Origin: a virus
Length of the DNA stretch: 43,578 nt
Reading direction: 5' to 3' (one strand)
IMG/VR virus record: IMGVR_UViG_3300045988_008873
The notes beneath the pieces were generated by a model. The model was not told the DNA's origin, did not search any database, and saw only the letters and a program-made list of their open reading frames with translations. The translations under genes were made by a program, and so were the position numbers. Of this stretch, positions 1 to 29,352 are shown piece by piece; the stretch's first letter is position 1, and each line of letters opens with the position of its first letter.

Positions 1-99
1 ATTTTTTTGTAGTACGGCTCTGGTGCTCTGTTCACCCACACCACGTTTACAAGTGCTCGTTCCTCCGGCAACCGCTCCGTCACCGGAATCCACCGCCGC
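1..99. repeat. Terminal overlap copy 1, identical to 43480..43578.
   Basis: Base-by-base comparison: atttttttgtagtacggctc...caccgccgc occurs at both ends of the window. Confidence 0.95.
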
Positions 100-269
100 T
101 TCTCCCGCAGCTCTGCGTTCGCGGCGGTCAGGCGCTCGATCAAATCAATGGCTGCCTCGCCTAAATGCACGATGCAATCCGCGTCGCTAAAAAGCGGGCA
201 TAAACCACCGTCTGCACAAACTTCTTTTTCGCAGCACCGCAGCGCCTGTATAATTTCCTTGTCTGTCAT
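1..269 (-). CDS. 5' portion of a wrap-around gene: Cys-rich N-terminus plus coiled coil, continuing into the DUF551-like C-terminus at 43302..43479. The full protein is 148 aa.
   Basis: ATG at 269..267 overlaps the upstream TGA (ATGA). Hand translation gives MTDKEIIQALRCCEKEVCADGG...REKRRWIPVTERLPEE with no stop down to base 1. The frame is continuous with the 43302..43562 ORF. Confidence 0.75.
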   Translation of the reverse strand, partial: MTDKEIIQALRCCEKEVCADGGLCPLFSDADCIVHLGEAAIDLIERLTAANAELREKRRWIPVTERLPEERALVNVVWVNRAPEPYYKK

Positions 270-1138
270 GTCGTCTCCTTCCAAAATTCGTTGAACTTTT
301 TTCCGGTAATAATTGGGCGGCACCATTCTCGCTGGAATCTCCGCCATTCAGAATCGTGCTTTCCATCCTCTCCGCGAAACAGCATGGCATACGGCACAAA
401 TCCTGCCTGCATGGTCTGCATCAAGCGTGTTTCTGCGTCCTCAAAACTATCTCCGTCATAGCCACACAGCACATAGCAGCACATGGAATGACTGGCTGGT
501 CGAAAACCTGCCATTCGCAGTTTCTTCCCCATCTCCATCAGCGGTTCAAGATCATCCTTCGTGTCATACGCCGTGTATAGCCTTGCCGGTTTTATCTCAT
601 GCAGCAGTTCCGCTTGCCATTGCTGCAATAGCGCCGGTTCTAAGCCGCCCGTAAAAACAGCTCTGTGCTTTTGCCGCTTGAGCATCTCACAGACTGCCCG
701 AAAATGCGCTTCTGACGTTCCAAGAATGTTGTCATCAAGGATGTTCCAGCCGTCCACGATCGGAAGCTCCCGAATTACGCCATGTGCGCAGCGCGGTACG
801 GAGCAGAACCAGCAGTCCTTTGTGCAGCCACGCGACGTGAAAATTAAGCCGTCTCTCAGATACAGTCCCGGTGTAAAGTCTCCCATTCGGTCATCAAATG
901 CAGGACCGCCGACCTCTACCGGAACGCCGAGAATCTGCCAAGCATCGTATAGCTCCTCCGCACGCTCCAAATCCCATGAAAAGGTTACGGAAATATGCGC
1001 CTCGCTCACGCAAGCCTTGATACAGTCCGCAATGTTCTCGATCGTCGGCTCTCGGAAGAACGCCAGCGCATCAGTCGGCGAAGCGTTTGTCTTTCGCGGG
1101 AAAACACGAGCAATCGCCGTCTGTTCTAAATTGCTCAC
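266..1138 (-). CDS. Radical SAM domain protein (290 aa).
   Basis: CxxxCxxC cluster motif in FTSRGCTKDCWFCSVP, about 105 residues from the N-terminus. Start and stop are coupled to the neighbouring genes. Confidence 0.7.
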   Translation of the reverse strand: MSNLEQTAIARVFPRKTNASPTDALAFFREPTIENIADCIKACVSEAHISVTFSWDLERAEELYDAWQILGVPVEVGGPAFDDRMGDFTPGLYLRDGLIFTSRGCTKDCWFCSVPRCAHGVIRELPIVDGWNILDDNILGTSEAHFRAVCEMLKRQKHRAVFTGGLEPALLQQWQAELLHEIKPARLYTAYDTKDDLEPLMEMGKKLRMAGFRPASHSMCCYVLCGYDGDSFEDAETRLMQTMQAGFVPYAMLFRGEDGKHDSEWRRFQREWCRPIITGKKFNEFWKETT

Positions 1139-5688: not shown

Positions 5689-5952
5689 TCATGCCCCCGT
5701 CAGTATCGCGCCGACGAAGAAGCACGCCGCCGCGCCTCCAAGCGTGACCGCCGCCCGGAACAGGCCAAAGCCAAGCATAACCGCCGTACCGCCCAGCAGC
5801 ATACACGCCACGGAGAAGCAGGCTGTTTCCGCGATCTTCATCAGGCTCTTTTGCCTCTTGCGAAGCCGTACGATCTCGTCCCACCTTTCGCCAAGCTCGC
5901 GCTCCCGCGCCGCTCTGTGGTTTAACTCCGTGATAATCTCAACGTCACTCAT
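5689..5952 (-). CDS. Small membrane protein (87 aa from MSDVEII).
   Basis: Two hydrophobic segments (ACFSVACMLLGGTAVMLGFGLF and AAACFFVGAILTGA). GGAGG lies 7 nt before the ATG at 5952, which overlaps the upstream TGA. Confidence 0.6.
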   Translation of the reverse strand: MSDVEIITELNHRAARERELGERWDEIVRLRKRQKSLMKIAETACFSVACMLLGGTAVMLGFGLFRAAVTLGGAAACFFVGAILTGA

Positions 5953-6703
5953 TCTCTGCCTCCACAAATTCGCCGCACATGATATTCTCCGGCTTGGTCT
6001 TCGCGATAATTTTTCTGTATTCGCTTGTGATTCTCACGCGGAGGCCTGCGTAAATGCCAAACTCACAGCCTGCCTCGATGCCTTCGCCTGCCTTGATGCC
6101 ACAGCCTGCCTCGATGCCACAGCCTGCCTCGATGCCTTCGCCTGCCTTGATGCCCCAGCCTGCCTTGATGCCCCAGCCTGCCTCGATGCCTTCGCCTGCC
6201 TTGATGCCACCGCCTGCCTCGATGCCTTCGCCTGCCTCGATGCCACAGCCTGCCTCGATGCCCCAGCCTGCCTTGATGCCACAGCCTGCCTTGATGCCAC
6301 AGCCTGCCTCGATGCCACAGCCTGCCTCGATGCCTTCGCCTGCCTTGATGCCCCAGCCTGCCTCGATGCCTTCGCCTGCCTTGATGCCACAGCCTGCCTC
6401 GATGCCACAGCCTGCCTCGATGCCACAGCCTGCCTCGATGCTTCCGGAAACTTCTAGCCGTCCAGCAAAAATGATTGATTTTTCAGTGATCAGATCGCCG
6501 TCCACCTTCCGGACATCATCCGTCCTGCCGAATACGGAAAGCAGCCATGACCCGTAGCTGAAACCCTTCTCCGCGCAGCAGTCCAGCAAATCCTGATACT
6601 CTACGCCATCCGGATACTTTTCTTCCGGGAATTCTTTCAGAAAATCCCTGTATCCGGCTGCACATGCGCCTTTCTCCCGCAGGAGCTCCTTTGTAATTTT
6701 CAT
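5945..6703 (-). CDS. Hexapeptide-repeat protein: a roughly 95-aa N-terminal domain followed by about 21 xGI(E/K)AG repeats.
   Basis: Strong SD aaggaggatgaaATG. The protein reads ...SGSIEAGCGIEAGCGIEAGCGIKAGEGIEAGWGIKAG... Confidence 0.8.
   Translation of the reverse strand: MKITKELLREKGACAAGYRDFLKEFPEEKYPDGVEYQDLLDCCAEKGFSYGSWLLSVFGRTDDVRKVDGDLITEKSIIFAGRLEVSGSIEAGCGIEAGCGIEAGCGIKAGEGIEAGWGIKAGEGIEAGCGIEAGCGIKAGCGIKAGWGIEAGCGIEAGEGIEAGGGIKAGEGIEAGWGIKAGWGIKAGEGIEAGCGIEAGCGIKAGEGIEAGCEFGIYAGLRVRITSEYRKIIAKTKPENIMCGEFVEAENE
6044..6445. repeat. 18-bp tandem repeat, about 22 units, coding.
   Basis: The plus-strand unit is gcctgcct(c/t)gatgcc(aca/ttc/cca/acc), head to tail with no spacers. Confidence 0.95.
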
Positions 6704-7423
6704 TTCATCCTCCTTAAATAATCTTCCTTGCCGAGTGGGGCTTTTCTGTTTGCTGCATAGCCCTTGCCGTGCGTCCCATACAGAGCCTTTGCCGTGCCAA
6801 ACGTAACTTTGCCTTTGCCTGTCAGAGCAAAGCGTGCGTTACTACGCCGTTGCCAATCCTTGCTTTACTTCGCCTTTGCCTCGCCAGTCCTGGCCGAGCC
6901 GTCCATCGCCCTCGCGTCGCTTAGCCTAGCCTTTCCGTTGCAAACATAGCATCCCATGCCGCCGCGAAACCAGACTGTGCTTTGCCTTTGCGAGGCACAT
7001 CAAATCTCTACAGTGCCGTTGCCACACATTGCATTCAAAGCCGTTGCTCACCTTGCGTTGCACCACCAAGCCTTTGCTTCGCTACGCAGCTCCAAGTCAT
7101 GCCCTCGCTACACACAGCAGTCGAAGCCTTTGCCGTACTTTACGCTGCAACACAACGCCATTGCTACGCTTTGCAACACCACGCCGTTGCCGTTCAATGC
7201 CTGTCTTCGCCGTTCGGAGCCATGCCTCTCCCTCGCGATACTATGCGTTTCATCGCTTATCCGTTGCTCCTCTGCGCCTTTCGCGGCTTCTCCTCTGCGC
7301 TCGTAGCTTATCGATGCCTTCGCTGTGAATCGTGTTGCCCTACTTTGCCGTTGCTGCGCCGTGCCGTGCGGGGCCGTGCAACTCCATTGCCCTTCGCCGC
7401 CGGGCCCATCTATGCCCTCGCAC
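6704..7423 (-). repeat. ORF-free segment carrying a dense same-orientation array of a short degenerate word. On the plus strand the word is GCC-N-TTGC-C/T; on the sense strand it is R-GCAA-N-GGC.
   Basis: I counted TTGC by hand 27 times on the plus strand in 6728..7390. There is no SD-preceded ORF. The region has C>G skew on the plus strand. Confidence 0.7.
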
Positions 7424-8008
7424 TTAATCGAGCACTTCGTAAGTGAACCGTCCCTTTCCGGAGTTCCGCCACTGGCCAATGCCTCTGAGCCGTCCGTAAT
7501 CCAGCCATTCCAGGACGATATCCTTGTGCGCCTTTTCATCCAGCATCGTAATTTCAAACTCGATCGTGCTGCCCGCCGGAATCTCCTCCGAGTTCGCAAG
7601 CGCCACACGCTCGCCCTGCGGGGTCGGTGCTCTCAAAGGCCGCTGGCATTCGCCGATCTCGCCGCTGACCTGAATTGGGATGTGCCGCGGCTCGACGAAA
7701 ATCAAACCGTCGATGATCTTCTTGTAAGCTTTCAAGCTCGAGCTTTTCGTGCTCTTGACTCTTGTCAGCATACCGCATGCGTCCTTGAAGAACCCCTTGA
7801 TCTGGTAGTCATACAGAACCGGGCAGCCGTTCGCGCGGGGAAATACCGTCATGCCCTTGTCTGCCACAACGTCCGCGCCCAAAGCCGCGATCTCGTCTTC
7901 GATGGTAGAAGCGTCCGGCGCTTTCGATGCGATGAAATCCCGCGCCACGTTCTCATTGCTCGGCCACGTGCCAAGCACAGGCTCTAAAAATGTTAATCTG
8001 ACTTTCAT
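7424..8008 (-). CDS. Hypothetical early protein (194 aa from MKVRLTF) with a RAMP-like C-terminal glycine-rich loop.
   Basis: The C-terminus GIGQWRNSGKGRFTYEVLD fits GhGxxxxxGhG. There is an internal PVLYDYQIKGFFKDACG. The SD aaggaaggaaa precedes the second ATG (8008). Confidence 0.7.
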   Translation of the reverse strand: MKVRLTFLEPVLGTWPSNENVARDFIASKAPDASTIEDEIAALGADVVADKGMTVFPRANGCPVLYDYQIKGFFKDACGMLTRVKSTKSSSLKAYKKIIDGLIFVEPRHIPIQVSGEIGECQRPLRAPTPQGERVALANSEEIPAGSTIEFEITMLDEKAHKDIVLEWLDYGRLRGIGQWRNSGKGRFTYEVLD

Positions 8009-8065: not shown

Positions 8066-8308
8066 TTAGTAATCAAAGGAGTCCAAAAACTCCTCCCGCG
8101 TGATTCCAAGCCGCTTGCAAATTGCGATTGTCCCTTTCATCTGCTCCCCAAGTGGCTCACGCATTCGCTTTGTCAGCGTCGTTTTGCTTGATACCCCGGC
8201 GAGTTTAAGCAGGTCGTCCAGTTTTACGTTTCTCTCCTTTACCCTCCCGTAAATCAGGCGGGACAGATTCTTCGACGTATTGTCCCGTCCGAGCTTTACC
8301 GCTGGCAT
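8066..8308 (-). CDS. Small HTH DNA-binding protein (80 aa).
   Basis: LDDLLKLAGVSSKTTLTKRM is a helix-turn-helix-like segment. It is the second gene of the early operon. Confidence 0.55.
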   Translation of the reverse strand: MPAVKLGRDNTSKNLSRLIYGRVKERNVKLDDLLKLAGVSSKTTLTKRMREPLGEQMKGTIAICKRLGITREEFLDSFDY

Positions 8309-8309
8309 G

Positions 8310-8516
8310 TTATTCCTCCTTTTCTCTGCTGCGCCGCTCTACGACGGCATCAAATGCGGCGTTCAGTCGCGCCTTTGCGTTCGGCGGCTTCCTTGCCCCG
8401 TTCAAGATCATGGACAAATAGCCTTTTGTCAGTCCAAGCTCTGCGGCAAGATCGTCGTATGAAACACGCGCATTGTGCATTTTCCCAATCAGTACGCCTG
8501 TCCATTTTTCTGGCAT
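8310..8516 (-). CDS. Cro-like XRE-family HTH protein (68 aa).
   Basis: SYDDLAAELGLTKGYLSMILNG is a canonical XRE HTH. It is the first gene, divergent from the cI-like gene. Confidence 0.7.
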   Translation of the reverse strand: MPEKWTGVLIGKMHNARVSYDDLAAELGLTKGYLSMILNGARKPPNAKARLNAAFDAVVERRSREKEE

Positions 8517-8543: not shown

Positions 8544-8573
8544 TTGACTGCAACGCCCCAGACGTGCTATACT
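8544..8573 (+). promoter_or_regulatory. Sigma-70/SigA-type promoter P1 (TTGACT, 18-nt spacer, TGcTATACT).
   Basis: -35 TTGACT at 8544..8549, an extended -10 TG at 8565..8566, and TATACT at 8568..8573. Confidence 0.6.
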
Positions 8574-8579
8574 GCCATT

Positions 8580-8881
8580 AGCCCTTTTAGGTAAATTCGG
8601 GAGGTGGTCGTCATGACCAAACTTTTGAACTTGCCAGTTCCAGACCAAAGAAACGGCGTAATGCGTTAGGGCAAGGGGCAGCGCCAGAACTGCCAAAGTG
8701 AGCGGCGCGTCATAGAAGCGCAAGTTCGTTTTGTGTCAGGGTGGCATTGCCGAGCCGGTGGAAAGAACTCCATCAATTCGGACGGATGCAAGGTAACGCA
8801 GACGGCCATCCTGTGCAGCGCGTTCTGGTAAACAACTCTGGGGGAAACCGCTCGTGAACGAACCACGGGCGGCTTTTCTTT
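8580..8881 (+). ncRNA. Candidate transcript of about 300 nt, bounded by P1 and an intrinsic terminator. It contains an SD-preceded 18-codon ORF (8613..8669).
   Basis: Promoter and terminator are both read directly. GGGAGGTGG at 8599..8607 is followed by ATG at 8613 (MTKLLNLPVPDQRNGVMR). There is no long ORF on this strand. Confidence 0.4.
8848..8881 (+). terminator. Intrinsic terminator.
   Basis: Stem ccgctcgtg / cacgggcgg (9 bp including one G-U pair), loop aacgaac, followed by cttttcttt. Confidence 0.6.
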
Positions 8882-9113: not shown

Positions 9114-9455
9114 GTGTTTTATGACAACTTTGTTGCGCTTTGCGCTTCTGTAAACAAAACCCCTGCATACGTTGGCCGAGAACTCGAAATTGACAAGTCA
9201 ACAATAAGCTGTTGGAAAGCGCGGAAGACAAAACCCTCTGACGTAAATGCGCAAAAAATCGCCGACTACTTCGGCGTAACAGTAGAAGAACTGATGGGCA
9301 AAGGCATAAAAAAAGACCCCATCCCGAAGGATGAGGACGAAGATTGCGAAACCGCAGAACTCCATGAAATTTGGAGTTCTGCGGATAAGAGTGAGCGCCG
9401 TGATTTGCTCGAAATGGCACGTATGCTAAAGAACCGGAGAAAGCAGAATGGATGA
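9114..9455 (+). CDS. cI-like XRE-family repressor (113 aa, GTG start).
   Basis: KTPAYVGRELEIDKSTISCWKARKTKPS is an XRE HTH. The SD agaggtg is upstream, and the gene is divergent from the Cro-like gene. Confidence 0.75.
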   Translation: MFYDNFVALCASVNKTPAYVGRELEIDKSTISCWKARKTKPSDVNAQKIADYFGVTVEELMGKGIKKDPIPKDEDEDCETAELHEIWSSADKSERRDLLEMARMLKNRRKQNG

Positions 9456-11124: not shown

Positions 11125-11706
11125 ATGTCGGCAATTCAGGAGCTCGCCCCATATATTTCTGCATATCAGGGGAACATCAAGCGGGCGAAAGAAGATCAGC
11201 ATTACACCATCGACAGACTTGTTGATGAATCCGGCGTTTCCAGATCGGCTGTTTCGAAGCTCTGTGCAGGTACGCAGCAAGACCCGAAACTATATAATTC
11301 TGCCGCGCTGTGCCGCGTTCTCGGGCTGTCGCTGGATGAGCTGTTCGGGCTAAAACAGCCTACCGACAGCCCAAGCGAACTACAGGAACGGAACCACAGG
11401 CTCGAACTCGAGAATGTCAGAGCGACCGCCGCAAACGAAATGCAGCGGGCGCAGATCAAAGCCACACACGCTATCTGCTACCTGTTGGTCTTTTTCTGTG
11501 CCATGCTTGCGTTTTCGCTGATCGTGTACCTTGTTATCGACTCGCAGATTACAGACGCTGGCATCATCCGGGACGGAAGGCTATCTGTAATGGCGTGGAT
11601 ATTTATCGCCCTGATTGTCGCGTCCATACTGGCCGTAGGCTTCACCATTCTTCGTATCGTCAAAAAGGAGAACCGCAATGAAAAAACTGAAAGTCCCAGA
11701 GGCTGA
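11125..11706 (+). CDS. Membrane-anchored XRE-family HTH protein (193 aa).
   Basis: YTIDRLVDESGVSRSAVSKLCAG is the HTH. It is followed by a coiled segment and then two hydrophobic helices (ICYLLVFFCAMLAFSLIVYLVI and VMAWIFIALIVASILAVGFTIL). The SD is ggagg. Confidence 0.7.
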   Translation: MSAIQELAPYISAYQGNIKRAKEDQHYTIDRLVDESGVSRSAVSKLCAGTQQDPKLYNSAALCRVLGLSLDELFGLKQPTDSPSELQERNHRLELENVRATAANEMQRAQIKATHAICYLLVFFCAMLAFSLIVYLVIDSQITDAGIIRDGRLSVMAWIFIALIVASILAVGFTILRIVKKENRNEKTESPRG

Positions 11707-12688
11707 AAAACTGCCGTCCGGCTCTTACCGCTGCCGCGTGATGGTAAACGGGAAAGCGAAGTCGTTCACAGCAAGCACAAAGCGAGAAGCAGAGCAAGAA
11801 GCTTTAGAATACAAAATCGGTATCCTTTCTGCCGAGGAGGCAAAGCCGGAAATAACAATCCGCAAAGCAATTGACGAATACCTGGAATTCAAGAGCGGCA
11901 CTCTTTCCCCAGCGTCTATTCGCGGGCACAGAATTAAGCAGCGGTGTTATCTTCAACCCATCATGGACGTTCCTTTGTCTAAGCTCTCTGTGAATGCTAT
12001 ACAGCAGGCAATCAACGCAGAAAAATGCAGCCCCAAGACCATCCGCGAAACATGGGCGCTGATACGTCCGGCTCTTAAACGATATGGCGTATCTTACGAA
12101 GTAGCACTTCCCGCCATCCAATCGGACGAGCACGCTTTTTTGTCTGCGGAAGAAATTCCTGTGTTTTTGAAAGCGGCGGAAGGGAGCAAGTATGAAATCG
12201 CGTTTCTTCTTGCGCTGCACTCTCTGCGTGTGTCAGAAATCCTCGGTTTGCGTTGGGAGAACGTTGATCTGAAAAAGCAGTCCATAACGGTTCGAGGGGC
12301 TACCCTGTTCGACGAAAACAACAAACTGGTAAACAAGGTGTCTAACAAAAACCGTTCTTCGCGGCGGACTATTCCGATCATGATACCGAGGCTGTCGCAG
12401 CTCCTTTCAGAAGCAGAAAAATCGAGTGATTTTGTCGTCGTTGCAAATCCGAACAGCATTCGCGCCGCGTCAAATAAAATATGCAAGGGCGCAAACCTGC
12501 CAGAAGTCGGGACACACGGTCTGCGGCATTCCTTCTGCTCCCTTGCGTATAAGCTAGGTATATCGGAAAAAGTCACGATGCAGCTAGGCGGATGGTCGGA
12601 TTACGGAACTATGCGGAAGATATACACGCACGTTGCGCAGGCAGACATATCCGAGTCTGTGCAGCAAATGAAAACGTTCTTTTCTTGA
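11678..12688 (+). CDS. int: Tyrosine integrase.
   Basis: LRVSEILGLRWENVD contains the Arg box. HGLRHSFCSLAY...GGWSDYGTMRKIYTHV gives the H-x-x-R and catalytic Tyr region. Confidence 0.9.
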   Translation: MKKLKVPEAEKLPSGSYRCRVMVNGKAKSFTASTKREAEQEALEYKIGILSAEEAKPEITIRKAIDEYLEFKSGTLSPASIRGHRIKQRCYLQPIMDVPLSKLSVNAIQQAINAEKCSPKTIRETWALIRPALKRYGVSYEVALPAIQSDEHAFLSAEEIPVFLKAAEGSKYEIAFLLALHSLRVSEILGLRWENVDLKKQSITVRGATLFDENNKLVNKVSNKNRSSRRTIPIMIPRLSQLLSEAEKSSDFVVVANPNSIRAASNKICKGANLPEVGTHGLRHSFCSLAYKLGISEKVTMQLGGWSDYGTMRKIYTHVAQADISESVQQMKTFFS

Positions 12689-19663: not shown

Positions 19664-21031
19664 TCACACCCCCACAATATGGTCTGCCAACGAGCTCCAG
19701 TTTGTTGCCGCTTTCCACGCATCCGCAAGAGATGCGGGCACCCGGATCTCCAGCTGCGCGTGCGTCTGATCGAACGCGTTGACGTTGGCCAGCGTTGGAA
19801 CTGCCGTGCAGTGCGTGAAGTCCACAAACCGCAGCGGATAGCATCGTTGAAACACCTGCGCCGGGATGCTCGCGATGTCCCCGAGGCATGTCACTCTGCG
19901 CAGCGCGTTGTCGCCCTGAAATGCGGCAGCGACAAAGGTTGTAGCGTCCGCTGGGATAGTGACTTCTAACAGAGCGCGGCAGGCCGAGAAGTCTCTAACT
20001 TGCCCGTTGACAGCCTTGATGTGGACGCGCTCGAGGGCTTGGGCTGTGCGGGCAGAAATCATATCAAAATTTACCCGCCGCACTGCTGTACTTCCGATGG
20101 CATTATCGCCGCTTTGCATCGTCCCTTTCGGGGATGCAATGGCTCGGATATTGGCGCAATTGTAAAAAGTCTGCCGAATTTCATCCATATCAGCCGCGAT
20201 AAGCACACGCAGTTGTGTACACATTTCAAATGTCCGGATGGCATATACTTTTGTTGTTTGCGGGAGTGAGATGCTCTCAAGCATGCTGCAATTTCTAACG
20301 ACCCCCGGCTCTGTGCTCACCACCCTCGCACCGACCTCAACTCTCCGCAGCATCGCGCAGCGGCCACTATCGGTTTCGCCGTTTGCAATCAGCCTCCGGC
20401 CATCGCGTCCAAGCCACATCGTCGTACCCTCTTTGACGCTCATCGTAATCACGTATGAGCCGCTGGATGCGTACACATGCCGATGCTCAATGTGCGAATC
20501 GGCATTTTTTGTTTCCGGGGTTGTTCCGTCGCCCCAGTCTACCGTTGTGGCGTTTCTTGTGCTCTGCCAATAGTTGAGGACAAAATCGTCCCACGTTTCG
20601 GTATCCACGTCGACGTAGAGCCTTGTCTTTCCGTCATCGGTAATGTACAGCGCGCCGATATCGAGCTCACGGCCTACGTCCTTGATGTCGGCAAGTGTCC
20701 AGTTCCAGCCCTGACAGATCAAGCCGTCATGGCTCGGAAGGGGCGGCAGCTCGGTCTTTGTGGCCAGCTCGGCGAGGGTCCACGCATACAGGAGCGTCCC
20801 GTCGTAGTCCCAGAAATTGATGTCCGACTCCTCGGGCGGGGTGGTATCTAACGTGCCGGTGATCTTCGCGCCCGAAGCGTCGTGCGCCGTCACGCCGGAT
20901 TTGAGCGACGCGGGGGTGACGGTATCGTCCGCCGTATCCACAAAGCGCGCCGTGCCGCCGCCCGTTTTCGGGACGTCCAGCGCCGGGACATCCGGGTACG
21001 ACGCGCCCGCGATTGTTACGTTCTGTCCCAT
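19664..21031 (-). CDS. Tail fibre or receptor-binding protein with BspA-type leucine-rich repeats (455 aa).
   Basis: There are repeated segments of about 23-26 aa (VRNCSMLESISLP, FYNCANIRAIASP, FSACRALLEVTIP, FQRCYPLRFVDF). The N-terminus is paralogous to 21042..21704. Confidence 0.65.
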   Translation of the reverse strand: MGQNVTIAGASYPDVPALDVPKTGGGTARFVDTADDTVTPASLKSGVTAHDASGAKITGTLDTTPPEESDINFWDYDGTLLYAWTLAELATKTELPPLPSHDGLICQGWNWTLADIKDVGRELDIGALYITDDGKTRLYVDVDTETWDDFVLNYWQSTRNATTVDWGDGTTPETKNADSHIEHRHVYASSGSYVITMSVKEGTTMWLGRDGRRLIANGETDSGRCAMLRRVEVGARVVSTEPGVVRNCSMLESISLPQTTKVYAIRTFEMCTQLRVLIAADMDEIRQTFYNCANIRAIASPKGTMQSGDNAIGSTAVRRVNFDMISARTAQALERVHIKAVNGQVRDFSACRALLEVTIPADATTFVAAAFQGDNALRRVTCLGDIASIPAQVFQRCYPLRFVDFTHCTAVPTLANVNAFDQTHAQLEIRVPASLADAWKAATNWSSLADHIVGV

Positions 21032-28378: not shown

Positions 28379-28945
28379 TTATTTTGAAATGCCCCATGCG
28401 GCGAGAACGTCTTTCTCTGCCTCTGTGTATGTAACTTTCAAATCGATTATATCCCTGTTCTTTCGGTAGAACTCCCGTTCCTGCTTGTCCAGAGGCTTCC
28501 CGTGTGCCTTTTTGTCTCGAATACGAACCACTTGAGCAAACAGGCAGTCTCCAATTTCCTGATAGAAAGACAGGAACGACCACCAGTGCAGATACTCAAG
28601 CGCCCGAACCTCGCATCCGGCGATTCTGTTCACGGGGGCAATAATCATGTTGAAGTCCTGCTCCCATGACATCAGCACGGGTTCTCTCTTCTTTTCTTTG
28701 CGTTCTTCCCCACGGTCTATAAACCGGAAACACTGGTTCAGAGCTTCCTGATAGTCGCTGGCTGGCATTCCCTCAAAGTCGGGATAGAAGATTCTCAGCG
28801 ATGCCTCCGCCTTGTCCTGCTCGTCCAGCTCGCTATCAACAAGGGCGGTGAGGATATCCAACACCGCCCGATAGTCAGACCGGATTTCGTATTCTGTTCC
28901 GTTTACATTGACCGATGTCGGTAAAGACCAGATTACTTTTTCCAT
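28379..28945 (-). CDS. Gp15-like tail assembly protein (188 aa from MEKVIW).
   Basis: It lies between the chaperone and the tape measure. The sequence SDYRAVLDILTAL...FYPDF resembles the phage Gp15 family. Confidence 0.55.
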   Translation of the reverse strand: MEKVIWSLPTSVNVNGTEYEIRSDYRAVLDILTALVDSELDEQDKAEASLRIFYPDFEGMPASDYQEALNQCFRFIDRGEERKEKKREPVLMSWEQDFNMIIAPVNRIAGCEVRALEYLHWWSFLSFYQEIGDCLFAQVVRIRDKKAHGKPLDKQEREFYRKNRDIIDLKVTYTEAEKDVLAAWGISK

Positions 28946-29352
28946 CTTTCCATATATTTCTTGATTCTCGGGTTCGTAGCCTTCTGTTCTCTTGCAAAGG
29001 TGGTGTCGATCTGGTCGATGATGCCGAGCATCAGATTGCTCCATACAGGCAAACCGTCAGCCAGTGCGAGGACATTCATAGAGCCGAAAAGAGGCGTGCA
29101 GAGCGGAACCCCGAAAAGACTGTCGATCGTATCGCGCATTTCGTTGCTTTCCCGACGCGCAACCTCAAAGATTTCCTTTTTGTTCGCGTTCTTTTCCACT
29201 TCTGCCTGATATTTCCGCTGACGATCTTCCAATCCGTTGAACACGTCAAAAATTTTCTCTACAATTTCTGCGTCTGTCGGGTTGACCTCGAGCGTTACTT
29301 TGTCGTTGATGTTGATTTTTTCAACGCCAGTTGCAATCTTGATGTCCGCCAT
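28933..29352 (-). CDS. Tail assembly chaperone (139 aa).
   Basis: It lies immediately downstream of the major tail protein and ends in TGG AAA AAG TAA, overlapping the next start. Confidence 0.55.
   Translation of the reverse strand: MADIKIATGVEKININDKVTLEVNPTDAEIVEKIFDVFNGLEDRQRKYQAEVEKNANKKEIFEVARRESNEMRDTIDSLFGVPLCTPLFGSMNVLALADGLPVWSNLMLGIIDQIDTTFAREQKATNPRIKKYMERWKK

What the first reader, a model, noticed from the sequence alone, without database searches (positions are those of the whole stretch)
7424..8008. Early-operon protein with a RAMP (Cas6/Cas7)-like glycine-rich loop, with no cas genes or CRISPR array in the genome
The protein ends in RLRGIGQWRNSGKGRFTYEVLD. This fits the GhGxxxxxGhG glycine-rich loop followed by a final beta-strand, which closes many RAMP-fold proteins (Cas6, Cas5, Csm3/Cmr4).

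Two other regions recall RAMP features. The N-terminus MKVRLTFLEPVLG resembles the RAMP beta-1 strand. The segment GCPVLYDYQIKGFFKDACG resembles the ...P-x-x-S-x-KG-x-x-R/K-x-A motif.

The gene is third in the Cro-led early operon, a typical location for counter-defence genes, and it directly precedes the 720-bp motif array. A solitary phage RAMP-fold protein could be an RNA-processing or RNA-binding factor for that region. It could also be a Cas-subunit mimic acting as an anti-CRISPR.

This is motif recognition by eye, not a homology result.
Basis: inference. Interest (0 to 1): 0.65.

Follow-up and report, generated by a model that had tools for sequence, protein, structure and literature searches.

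The report
Phage VIPR system: RAMP protein plus guide-RNA array
The gene encodes a small Cas7-like (RAMP) protein which, together with the 5-base-periodic non-coding array just downstream, matches the VIPR RNA-guided DNA-silencing systems of phages described in two 2026 preprints; this is a divergent, very common gut-phage member of that known kind, not a new kind of thing.

Summary
The 194-aa ORF at 7424..8008 (-) is real, third in the Cro-led operon, and ends in a glycine-rich loop plus a final strand.

The RAMP reading also holds:
- Weak single-sequence hits all fall on Cas7 or Csm4.
- A family profile hits type VII Cas7 (E 2e-5) and Csm4 (E 1e-3).
- The top 50 Foldseek PDB matches to the AlphaFold model (pLDDT 79) are almost all Csm3, Csm4, Csm5 or type VII Cas7.

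The decisive result concerns the 720-bp "motif array".
- It is a strand-specific array of about 130 pentamers, G-[C/A]-N-N-N, with G every 5 nt.
- A 6-nt GCAANG junction splits it into about 25 units of 5n+1 nt.
- The same periodicity lies beside the gene, on the gene's strand, in 72 of 83 loci.

This matches VIPR systems (bioRxiv 10.64898/2026.04.26.720920 and .720927). In those, Vipr RAMP protomers polymerise one per pentamer on a vrRNA. The variable bases then guide binding to double-stranded DNA, which silences competing phages.

The family aligns over its full length with the validated SUSP1 Vipr (hhalign E 2e-5). It keeps that protein's G-loop Trp-Arg.

It differs from the characterised type II systems in having one fixed G, short units, no structured tail and no conserved accessory gene. 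I found no natural targets. The anti-CRISPR mimic idea is unsupported.

The parts
7424..8008 (-). vipr gene. It encodes a 194-aa single-RRM RAMP (Cas7-like) protein with beta-1 at residues 2-7, a helical insert at about 19-50 (low confidence; corresponds to the Vipr alpha-bundle), RRM helix-1 at 67-81, a thumb beta-hairpin at 119-143 (CQRPLRAPTPQGERVALANSE), helix-2 at 158-175, a G-loop at 176-187 (GIGQWRNSGKGR) and a final strand at 188-193.
   Evidence: ORF. AF2 model with pLDDT 79 and pTM 0.75. Foldseek PDB top hits are Csm3 and type VII Cas7, E 4e-6. Profile against PDB: Cas7 E 2e-5 and Csm4 E 1.2e-3. hhalign to SUSP1 Vipr is full-length, E 1.8e-5. Conserved columns.
6760..7421 (-). Putative vrRNA array of about 130 pentamers G-[C/A]-N-N-N on the gene's strand. 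An 8-nt junction motif GC[AG]ANGG[CA] divides it into about 24-25 units. That motif comprises the last pentamer GCAAN, one extra G and the first GC of the next unit. Unit lengths are mostly 26, 31, 36 or 46 nt (5n+1).
   Evidence: Motif list and spacing. Position matrix over 860 motif copies from the loci with an array of at least 8 motifs. G-periodicity power 44.5 at 5.1 nt, unique in the window. Unit parse. No Rfam hit. RNA less folded than shuffles, z +2.4. No terminator-like site on the minus strand between gene and array.
8066..8308 (-). 80-aa ORF, second gene of the early operon and directly upstream of vipr. It has no family hit. It is not conserved next to vipr in other loci, so it is not a demonstrable vap accessory gene.
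8310..8516 (-). Cro-like HTH, first gene of the operon that contains vipr and the array.
   Evidence: Pfam HTH_3 E 7e-5 and PHROG transcriptional repressor
9114..9455 (+). cI-like repressor, divergent from the Cro-led operon. Included as context: the VIPR module sits at the lysis-lysogeny switch of a temperate phage.
   Evidence: Pfam HTH_3 and Phage_CI_repr, PHROG transcriptional repressor. Integrase at 11678..12688.

Best explanation
The gene and the adjacent non-coding block together form a VIPR (Viral Interference Programmable Repeat) module of a temperate gut Clostridia phage.

Shown here:
- The protein is a small single-RRM RAMP homologous to the validated SUSP1 Vipr.
- It is followed, with no terminator, by a co-oriented array of pentanucleotide repeats. 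The first base is almost always G, the second is C or A, and the last three vary.
- This gene-array pairing is conserved across relatives down to about 50% protein identity.
- Arrays differ between phages with identical proteins by gain, loss and substitution of whole units.

Inferred from the SUSP1 and P. fulva work in the two preprints:
- The array is transcribed with the Cro-led early operon.
- Vipr protomers polymerise on it, one protomer per pentamer.
- The thumb and G-loop (W180, R181 here) sequester the fixed G and the following base, and expose the variable bases.
- The exposed bases pair in a gapped register with double-stranded DNA of a competing phage, prophage or satellite. The bound filament blocks transcription.

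This clade is a divergent variant. It has one fixed G instead of GG, and both SUSP1 residues that read the first G are replaced (H17 to T14, D177 to Q179). Its units are short, 4-9 pentamers ending in GCAANG, instead of about 100-nt vrRNAs with a pseudoknot tail. It has no conserved accessory gene.
For: Fold:
- AF2 model, pLDDT 79.
- The top 50 Foldseek PDB hits are almost all Csm3/4/5 or type VII Cas7.
- The profile hits only RAMPs in the PDB. Weak single-sequence hits all fall on the G-loop of Cas7_IIId, Csm4 or type VII Cas7.

Homology to a validated Vipr:
- SUSP1 ORF 28474..29061 carries the published residues H17, K33, E71, M72, D177, W178 and R179.
- hhalign of the family profile against it aligns 174 columns end to end (P 78%, E 1.8e-5).
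- Profile against profile aligns 185 columns (P 66%, E 5.6e-5).
- Pairwise BLASTP gives E 3e-5 and aligns GIGQWRNSGKGRF with GVGDWRPRFGRF.

Array:
- G occurs every 5 nt, at 70-84% of positions across 860 motif copies, and the motif spacing peaks at 21/26/31/36/41 nt.
- In 464 unique units, position 1 is G in 94% and position 2 is C in 56% or A in 33%.
- Substitution rates between related units are 1.6%, 17%, 22%, 29% and 34% for positions 1 to 5.

Association:
- The strongest 5.1-5.2-nt G periodicity of each roughly 12-kb locus lies next to the gene, on its strand, in 72 of 83 loci. Power is 16-48 against a 99th-percentile background of 9.4.
- There are 0 motif arrays on the opposite strand in any locus.
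- The same statistic picks out the experimentally validated SUSP1 vrRNA array.

Modular turnover: contigs encoding the identical protein carry 13-25 units that are shared in part, and the close relative L003 (96.6% nt identity in the gene) shows whole-unit indels.

RNA: the array folds less well than shuffles (z +2.4).

Literature: the VIPR definition includes alternative YNNNG/NNNNG repeats and 'staggered arrays'.
Against: - No RNA or binding data exist for this locus. Transcription, processing and RNP formation are all inferred.
- Sequence homology to SUSP1 Vipr is only moderate (hhalign probability 66-78%). It is comparable in E-value to the hit on CRISPR Cas7, though it is full-length rather than C-terminal only.
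- Units of 4-9 pentamers would specify only about 8-16 bases under the published two-bases-per-repeat rule. That seems too little for specific targeting.
- No structured 3' tail and no conserved vap gene were found.
- Target searches under the 1-nt-skip rule and ten other rules gave no signal clearly above shuffled guides. These used 1.7 Mb of related prophage DNA. Exact scans of IMG/VR gave only chance-level hits.
- About 10 of 83 loci show no clear array within the sequence held.
- I could not check whether this clade is among the preprint's 667 classified systems, because no supplements are held.
Confidence: 0.78

Rival explanations
1. It has VIPR-like ribonucleoprotein architecture but a different code or output. 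This clade would read three variable bases per repeat. Alternatively, one long filament would run across units with a 1-nt register shift per turn. It could also target RNA, or the phage's own or the host's genes, rather than repressing competing phages by the published xNN rule.
For: - There is only one fixed G, and both G1-contacting residues of SUSP1 Vipr are replaced.
- All three remaining positions vary, and the fifth varies most.
- Units of mostly 5-6 pentamers equal about one filament turn, which is 5-6 subunits per turn in SUSP1.
- The published rule showed no clear enrichment.
Against: - None of the alternative rules gave a signal either.
- The local database was small and the test had little power.
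- The preprint states that types with YNNNG/NNNNG repeats exist and treats them as the same system.
Confidence: 0.12
2. The array acts as DNA, not RNA. It would be a replication origin, a partition site or another protein-binding platform, whose 5.15-bp period is half a helical turn. The RAMP protein or another early protein would bind it.
For: - The mean period of 5.10-5.20 nt is close to half of 10.3-10.4 bp per turn.
- The block lies just before the recombination and replication genes: Rad52/Erf-like, SSB and HNH.
Against: - The extra nucleotide always falls inside one specific motif (GCAANG|GC) and is not spread along the helix.
- The array is always on the gene's sense strand, even where it has moved upstream or kilobases away. 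No locus has one on the opposite strand.
- The sense strand is about 63% purine and is selected against folding.
- The partner protein has an RNA-binding RAMP fold homologous to a protein shown to bind such repeats as RNA.
Confidence: 0.04
3. The protein is an anti-CRISPR. As a solitary Cas7 mimic it would poison host type I/III effector complexes, and the array would act as a decoy RNA.
For: - Cas7-like fold.
- Early-operon position.
- RNA-based anti-CRISPRs that mimic repeats are known (established knowledge; related titles).
Against: - The protein is no closer to any host Cas7 than E 2e-5, and only on 55 residues.
- The array has 5-nt, not 6-nt, periodicity and carries no CRISPR-repeat-like sequence.
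- The gene-array pairing and the G-loop Trp-Arg match Vipr, whose function was shown to be DNA silencing.
- Hosts span several Clostridia families and Coriobacteriia (Eggerthellaceae, Atopobiaceae), with no single CRISPR type implied.
Confidence: 0.03
4. The protein is a Cas6-like endoribonuclease or RNA chaperone. It would process or regulate the polycistronic early transcript in cis, for example by controlling expression of the downstream recombination genes, with no guide function.
For: - The array is an intergenic part of the operon mRNA, between vipr and the next gene.
- RAMPs include the Cas6 nucleases (established knowledge).
Against: - It has a single RRM with a Cas7-type thumb, and the best fold matches are Cas7/Csm3, not Cas6.
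- Whole-unit turnover and hypervariable positions within a fixed frame are what a guide library shows, not a cis-regulatory element.
- In some loci the array is kilobases from the gene or upstream of it.
Confidence: 0.03

Closest known systems
VIPR systems (Vipr protein + vrRNA), type II of Escherichia phage SUSP1 and the P. fulva prophage; bioRxiv 10.64898/2026.04.26.720920 and 10.64898/2026.04.26.720927
   Same: - A phage-encoded RAMP of about 20 kDa with a single RRM, thumb, G-loop and helical insert.
- No cas genes and no CRISPR array.
- A long intergenic region beside the gene made of tandem pentanucleotide repeats with fixed G-containing positions and variable positions.
- The G-loop Trp-Arg is kept: W180/R181 here against W178/R179 in SUSP1.
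- Full-length profile alignment.
- Arrays vary between near-identical phages.
   Different: - The repeat is G-[C/A]-N-N-N with a single fixed G. This is closest to the preprint's 'YNNNG' alternative, not GGY-NN.
- The residues that read the first G in SUSP1 (H17, D177) are T14 and Q179 here.
- About 25 short units of 4-9 pentamers are joined head to tail by a 6-nt GCAANG junction. SUSP1 has a few vrRNAs of about 100 nt with 9-16 repeats and a pseudoknot tail. The arrangement here may be the preprint's 'staggered arrays', but I could not see its figure S18.
- No conserved accessory (vap) gene.
- The module sits in the Cro-led early operon of temperate Clostridia and Coriobacteriia phages.
- Natural targets are unknown.
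CRISPR type III Csm3/Cmr4 and type VII Cas7 backbone subunits
   Same: The RRM core, thumb hairpin and C-terminal glycine-rich loop followed by a final strand are shared. These are the best structural matches (E 4e-6 to 1e-4, TM 0.5-0.6) and the best PDB sequence matches. Polymerisation along a guide RNA is shared by inference.
   Different: - No cas neighbours and no CRISPR repeats.
- 5-nt rather than 6-nt register.
- The RNA carries a sequence-specific periodic G.
- The protein is smaller and has a helical insert in place of a separate small subunit.
- Sequence similarity is limited to about 55 C-terminal residues.
Cas6 endoribonucleases
   Same: RAMP superfamily with a glycine-rich loop.
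   Different: Cas6 has two RRM domains and cuts within repeats. This protein has one RRM plus a Cas7-type thumb, and no Cas6 entry is among the listed top 50 fold matches.
RNA anti-CRISPRs and phage mini-CRISPR arrays
   Same: Phage-borne repeat RNAs without a full cas operon.
   Different: Those copy host CRISPR repeats and rely on host Cas proteins. This array has no CRISPR-like repeat and comes with its own RAMP protein.

Membership tests
VIPR (Vipr + vrRNA) | Small single-RRM RAMP protein with G-loop, thumb and alpha-helical bundle, lacking a second RRM | tested here: met
   The AF2 model has beta-1, a helical insert at 19-50, helix-1, a thumb hairpin at 119-143, helix-2, a G-loop and a final strand, in 194 aa. 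Foldseek hits only RAMP backbone subunits.
VIPR (Vipr + vrRNA) | Sequence homology to an experimentally validated Vipr (SUSP1) | tested here: met
   hhalign gives 174-185 aligned columns end to end, E 1.8e-5 and 5.6e-5, at a moderate probability of 66-78%. BLASTP pair E 3e-5. Support is moderate, not strong.
VIPR (Vipr + vrRNA) | Intergenic tandem pentanucleotide repeats beside the gene, with fixed G-containing positions alternating with variable positions (YNNGG, or the alternatives NNNGG, YNNNG, NNNNG) | tested here: met
   G occurs every 5 nt. Position 1 is G in 94% and position 2 is C/A in 89% of pentamers, while positions 3-5 vary. The pattern lies beside the gene in 72 of 83 loci. It corresponds to the YNNNG-like alternative.
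VIPR (Vipr + vrRNA) | Residues that hold the repeat's fixed bases (SUSP1 H17, D177 for G1; R138, W178 for G2; R179 etc. for Y3) | tested here: inconclusive
   W180 and R181 align with W178 and R179 and are at least 90% conserved. H17 and D177 align with T14 and Q179. That fits the loss of the first G but is an inference. The thumb arginines R123, R126 and R134 are conserved, but their alignment to R138 is uncertain.
VIPR (Vipr + vrRNA) | No cas genes and no CRISPR array in the locus | tested here: met
   Repeat scan of the whole window. No Cas family among the 30 ORFs scanned against Pfam. No cas-like conserved neighbour in 83 loci.
VIPR (Vipr + vrRNA) | Conserved structured 3' tail capping each vrRNA (a pseudoknot in the SUSP1 clade) | tested here: not met
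   Units end in a 6-nt GCAANG junction only. The array is less structured than shuffles and has no Rfam hit. The preprint allows other architectures, namely staggered, ribozyme-interspersed and single-vrRNA arrays.
VIPR (Vipr + vrRNA) | Accessory vap gene next to vipr (typical, not universal) | tested here: inconclusive
   Clustering of neighbours in 83 loci found no conserved partner apart from generic cI/Cro HTH genes, integrase and SSB. The 80-aa upstream ORF has no family hit.
VIPR (Vipr + vrRNA) | vrRNA is expressed and co-purifies with Vipr as a helical filament, one protomer per repeat | not testable with these tools
   Needs sRNA-seq, RIP or cryo-EM. Only co-orientation and the absence of a terminator are shown.
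VIPR (Vipr + vrRNA) | Variable bases match dsDNA targets in competing mobile elements with a 1-nt skip | tested here: inconclusive
   The published rule gave 334 perfect sites against about 264 for shuffles (ratio 1.27). Other rules gave ratios up to 1.28. There was no signal for two-unit guides. IMG/VR exact scans were at chance level. Power was low.
CRISPR-Cas Cas7 (Csm3/Cmr4/type VII Cas7) | Encoded in a cas operon next to a CRISPR array | tested here: not met
CRISPR-Cas Cas7 (Csm3/Cmr4/type VII Cas7) | RAMP fold with thumb and G-loop | tested here: met
CRISPR-Cas Cas7 (Csm3/Cmr4/type VII Cas7) | 6-nt register on a sequence-independent guide backbone | tested here: not met
   The associated RNA has a 5-nt register with a sequence-specific G. 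The register is inferred from the DNA sequence, not from a complex.
Cas6 | Two RRM domains and repeat-specific endonuclease activity | tested here: not met
   The model has a single RRM, and no Cas6 entry is among the listed top 50 fold matches. Nuclease activity was not testable.

The most novel reading that the evidence does not exclude
This gut-phage clade would be a mechanistically distinct VIPR type. It would use mini-guides of about one filament turn (4-9 pentamers), with one fixed G and three free positions, chained by a 1-nt register shift. Its recognition rule would differ from the published GGY/NN, 1-nt-skip code. It might read three bases per repeat, or act through many short guides cooperatively. 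Because the identical protein recurs in hundreds of human-gut assemblies, it would be a major, uncharacterised layer of inter-phage conflict in the gut.
Probability: 0.25. Interest if true: 0.7.

Novelty: new member of a known kind. Interest (0 to 1): 0.5.

Why it matters
VIPR was reported only in 2026, as a non-CRISPR, RNA-guided DNA-binding system of phages and a possible ancestor of CRISPR RAMPs. The experimental work covers type II systems of E. coli and Pseudomonas phages.

This locus shows that a divergent clade is extremely common in temperate phages of human-gut Clostridia and Coriobacteriia.
- The family has thousands of protein clusters.
- The identical protein occurs in 643 blocks of public assemblies.
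- The module sits at the lysis-lysogeny switch.

Three features make it a natural test case for how the repeat code and the protein co-vary, and for how little guide is enough:
- the single-G repeat;
- the matching replacement of the two residues that read the first G;
- the very short, chained units.

For annotation, the gene should be called vipr. The 660-nt block should be called a vrRNA array, not an origin or junk.

Tried and rejected
- **Single-sequence family searches.** Pfam gave nothing. PHROG 4652 was only E 0.3. NCBIfam and PADLOC gave sub-threshold RAMP hits. These are suggestive only, so I used profile and structure searches.
- **GenBank phages by tblastn.** This gave four unannotated gut-phage records and no named relative.
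- **Treating the block as a tandem repeat or CRISPR-like array.** TRF and the repeat finder saw only fragments. The pattern emerged only from the motif position matrix and Fourier analysis.
- **Conserved neighbours as accessory genes.** None were found beyond generic lysogeny and recombination genes.
- **Second vipr copy near distant arrays.** None was found.
- **Natural targets.** I tested eleven pairing rules on single units, six rules with two junction offsets on adjacent unit pairs, and twelve rules by total site counts. All ran against 1.7 Mb of related prophage DNA with shuffled controls. Nothing was clearly above control.
- **IMG/VR exact scans with the longest window unit.** The 18-specified-base xNN pattern gave 2 hits, one in a membrane-protein-like ORF and one in a region of overlapping ORFs. 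My rough estimate of the chance expectation, from an assumed size for the collection, is about 1-2, so I treat these as chance. The contiguous-triplet pattern gave 0 hits.
- **Helical-phasing (DNA) reading of the 5.15-nt period.** I considered this and rejected it as the main explanation. The extra base is always inside one motif, and the array is strictly strand-specific.
- **Rfam at a permissive threshold on the array.** No hit and no hammerhead.
- **Supplementary tables of the preprint.** I wanted to see whether this clade is already classified, but they are not held.
Full report
**1. The observation**

The window has a minus-strand ORF from 8029 to 7424. The ATG at 8008 is preceded by AAGGAAGGA and a 7-nt spacer (sequence). 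The gene is third in an operon that begins with a Cro-like HTH (8310..8516; Pfam HTH_3 and a PHROG repressor) followed by an 80-aa ORF (8066..8308). The operon runs divergently from a cI-like repressor (9114..9455).

The window is a temperate siphovirus-like genome. It carries an integrase (11678..12688), SSB, a Rad52/Erf-like annealing protein, HNH, and capsid and tail genes. No CRISPR-like array is present. No Cas family was found among the 30 ORFs scanned.

**2. The protein is a RAMP**

Single-sequence searches gave nothing in Pfam. All the weak hits elsewhere fell on the C-terminal loop of RAMP proteins:
- cas5_csm4, E 0.17
- PADLOC Cas7_IIId, E 0.011
- a 200-aa Cas7 in the PDB, E 0.23

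The family is very large. It has more than 7,980 clusters at 90% identity and 1,730 representatives at 50% identity with E<=1e-3. Almost all are about 200 aa and unnamed.

A profile of 77 diverse members (A1) raised the PDB hits to E 2e-5 for type VII Cas7 and E 1.2e-3 for Csm4.

An AlphaFold2 model built from 42 homologues has pLDDT 79 and pTM 0.75. Its order of elements is that of a single-RRM RAMP:
- strand 2-7
- a poorly predicted helical insert at 19-50
- strand 62-66 and helix 67-81
- a long hairpin at 119-143
- helix 158-175
- a glycine-rich loop at 176-187
- a final strand at 188-193

Foldseek against the PDB returned 61 matches at E<=1e-3. The top 50 are almost all type III Csm3/Csm4/Csm5 or type VII Cas7, with single Cmr, type III-D and Cas7-11 entries (best E 4e-6, TM 0.5-0.6). 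Against viral models, the best match is an 88%-identical UniProt entry already named 'Cas system-associated RAMP superfamily protein'.

**3. The neighbouring block is the key**

On the gene's strand, the 720 nt after the stop codon hold about 25 copies of an 8-nt motif, GC[AG]ANGG[CA]. The first copy starts 2 nt after the stop.

I fetched 80 genomic loci of relatives and two GenBank phages. The motif is enriched 10- to 27-fold on the gene's strand next to the gene, and absent on the other strand.

A position matrix over 860 motif copies shows G every 5 nt between motifs (70-84%), followed by C in about 45% of cases. Motif spacings peak at 21, 26, 31, 36 and 41 nt, that is 5n+1. The block is therefore a run of pentamers. 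One extra G at each motif shifts the register by one.

In the window, the G indicator has spectral power 44.5 at 5.1 nt. Only this region of the 43.6 kb shows such power.

Across 83 loci, the strongest 5.1-5.2-nt G periodicity of the whole locus lies beside the gene, on its strand, in 72 cases. Power there is 16-48, against a 99th-percentile background of 9.4. This includes loci where the 8-nt motif itself is not recognisable. The array is usually directly downstream, sometimes directly upstream, and occasionally a second array lies kilobases away. It is never on the opposite strand.

No other neighbour is conserved.

**4. Anatomy of the repeat**

In 464 unique, well-delimited units, pentamer position 1 is G in 94%. 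Position 2 is C in 56% or A in 33%. Positions 3-5 are variable. The last pentamer of a unit is GC[A/G]AN, followed by one G.

Between related units from different loci, substitution rates are 1.6%, 17%, 22%, 29% and 34% for positions 1 to 5.

The exact window protein is on record in 643 blocks of public assemblies. Six contigs encoding it carry arrays of 13 to 25 units, which share many units but differ by whole-unit gain, loss and replacement. The close relative L003 (96.6% nucleotide identity in the gene, no indels) shows the same kind of turnover, plus stretches where only the periodic G is kept.

The array RNA folds less well than shuffled versions (z +2.4). No terminator-like site separates it from the gene. 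It has no Rfam match.

**5. Identification**

[quoted passage not shown] A second search found its structural companion (10.64898/2026.04.26.720927).

The preprints describe VIPR systems as follows:
- A phage-encoded Vipr RAMP of about 20 kDa is flanked by long intergenic regions.
- Those regions encode vrRNAs made of tandem pentanucleotide repeats: GGY fixed and NN variable, with alternatives NNNGG, YNNNG and NNNNG.
- One protomer binds each repeat in a right-handed filament.
- The thumb and G-loop sequester the fixed bases.
- The variable bases pair with double-stranded DNA, skipping one target base per repeat.
- Binding silences genes of competing phages, prophages and satellites.

**6. Direct test against a validated Vipr**

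In phage SUSP1 (KT454805.2) the ORF at 28474..29061 carries the published residues H17, K33, E71, M72, D177, W178 and R179. Its downstream intergenic region reads GGTCT GGTGT ....

- The family profile aligns with this protein over 174 columns end to end (probability 78%, E 1.8e-5).
- Profile against profile aligns over 185 columns (probability 66%, E 5.6e-5).
- Pairwise BLASTP gives E 3e-5 and aligns GIGQWRNSGKGRF with GVGDWRPRFGRF.

The Trp and Arg that hold the second G and the pyrimidine in SUSP1 are W180 and R181 here, both at least 90% conserved. The two residues that read the first G, H17 and D177, align with T14 and Q179. This fits the loss of the first G from this clade's repeat, but it rests on two clades only and is an inference.

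As a control, my periodicity statistic applied to 50 kb of SUSP1 peaks exactly on its validated vrRNA array (power 22.7).

**7. Best explanation and its limits**

The gene is a vipr gene and the block is its vrRNA array.

Shown here:
- the fold
- the homology
- the repeat anatomy
- the strict co-orientation
- the conservation of the pairing
- the modular turnover of units

Inferred from the preprints:
- transcription of the array
- filament assembly
- DNA targeting
- inter-phage repression

The differences from the characterised type II systems are real:
- a single fixed G
- short units of 4-9 pentamers joined by GCAANG, instead of about 100-nt vrRNAs with a pseudoknot tail
- no conserved accessory gene

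Under the published two-bases-per-repeat rule, a unit would specify only about 8-16 bases. The code or the functional unit may therefore differ in this clade.

My target searches under many rules found nothing clearly above shuffled controls in 1.7 Mb of related prophage DNA. Exact scans of IMG/VR were at chance level. These tests had little power, so natural targets remain unknown.

**8. Rivals**

- **DNA-level role (origin or partition site).** The 5.15-nt mean period and the nearby replication genes suggest it. Three points argue against it: the extra base is confined to one motif, the array is strictly strand-specific, and the partner protein is an RNA-binding RAMP.
- **Anti-CRISPR Cas7 mimic.** Nothing supports this beyond the fold.
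- **Cas6-like processing enzyme.** The single RRM and the Cas7-type matches make this unlikely.

**9. Verdict**

The locus is a new, divergent and very abundant member of a kind of system first described in 2026. It is not a new kind. I could not determine whether the preprint's classification already includes this clade, because its supplements are not held.

Noticed in passing
window 8655..8878 (+): A FuFi-1 RNA (Rfam RF02986, 101.6 bits, E 5e-21) lies between the Cro-like and cI-like genes. It is on the strand opposite the Cro-led operon. It has a promoter-like site at 8544..8573 and a strong terminator-like hairpin at 8848..8872. It could therefore be antisense to the early-left leader.
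   Followed up: partly
window 5945..6703 (-), repeats 6064..6441: The gene just after the array encodes a 252-aa protein with 21 tandem 18-nt (hexapeptide GIEAGx/GIKAGx) repeats. It has no Pfam or PHROG hit. Its length varies between related contigs (222-258 aa), and it is absent in some.
   Followed up: partly
L081 11597..12056; L041 10258..10553; L006 3197..3431; L008 8631..8820: Some related loci carry a second motif cluster of the same kind and same strand, 1.7-5 kb away from vipr, with no second vipr copy nearby. In L081 it is the strongest 5.14-nt periodicity of the locus. The others could be coding repeats, which I did not check.
   Followed up: partly
L053 and L055 (contig JAGCAN010000001.1, 67356-79967 and 19463-32074): Two vipr-plus-array modules with the same identity to the query and the same array coordinates lie about 48 kb apart on one Oscillospiraceae contig. 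This suggests two related prophages or a duplication.
   Followed up: no
L026, L036, L038, L042, L071, L082 (and the truncated L035, L037, L061, L078): About ten loci encode a full-length relative but show no clear 5-nt periodic array within the flanks held. They may be orphan vipr genes or have arrays elsewhere.
   Followed up: no
window 266..1138 (-) and 19664..21031 (-): There is a radical-SAM-like ORF at the left end (sub-threshold Pfam hit, E 2.9e-5). There is also a BspA-type leucine-rich-repeat protein next to the tail genes.
   Followed up: no
loci L005, L022, L026, L057, L073: Several homologous loci sit in bins labelled Bacteroides, Prevotella or Alloprevotella, while most are Clostridia or Coriobacteriia. 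This is probably mis-binning of phage contigs rather than true host range.
   Followed up: no
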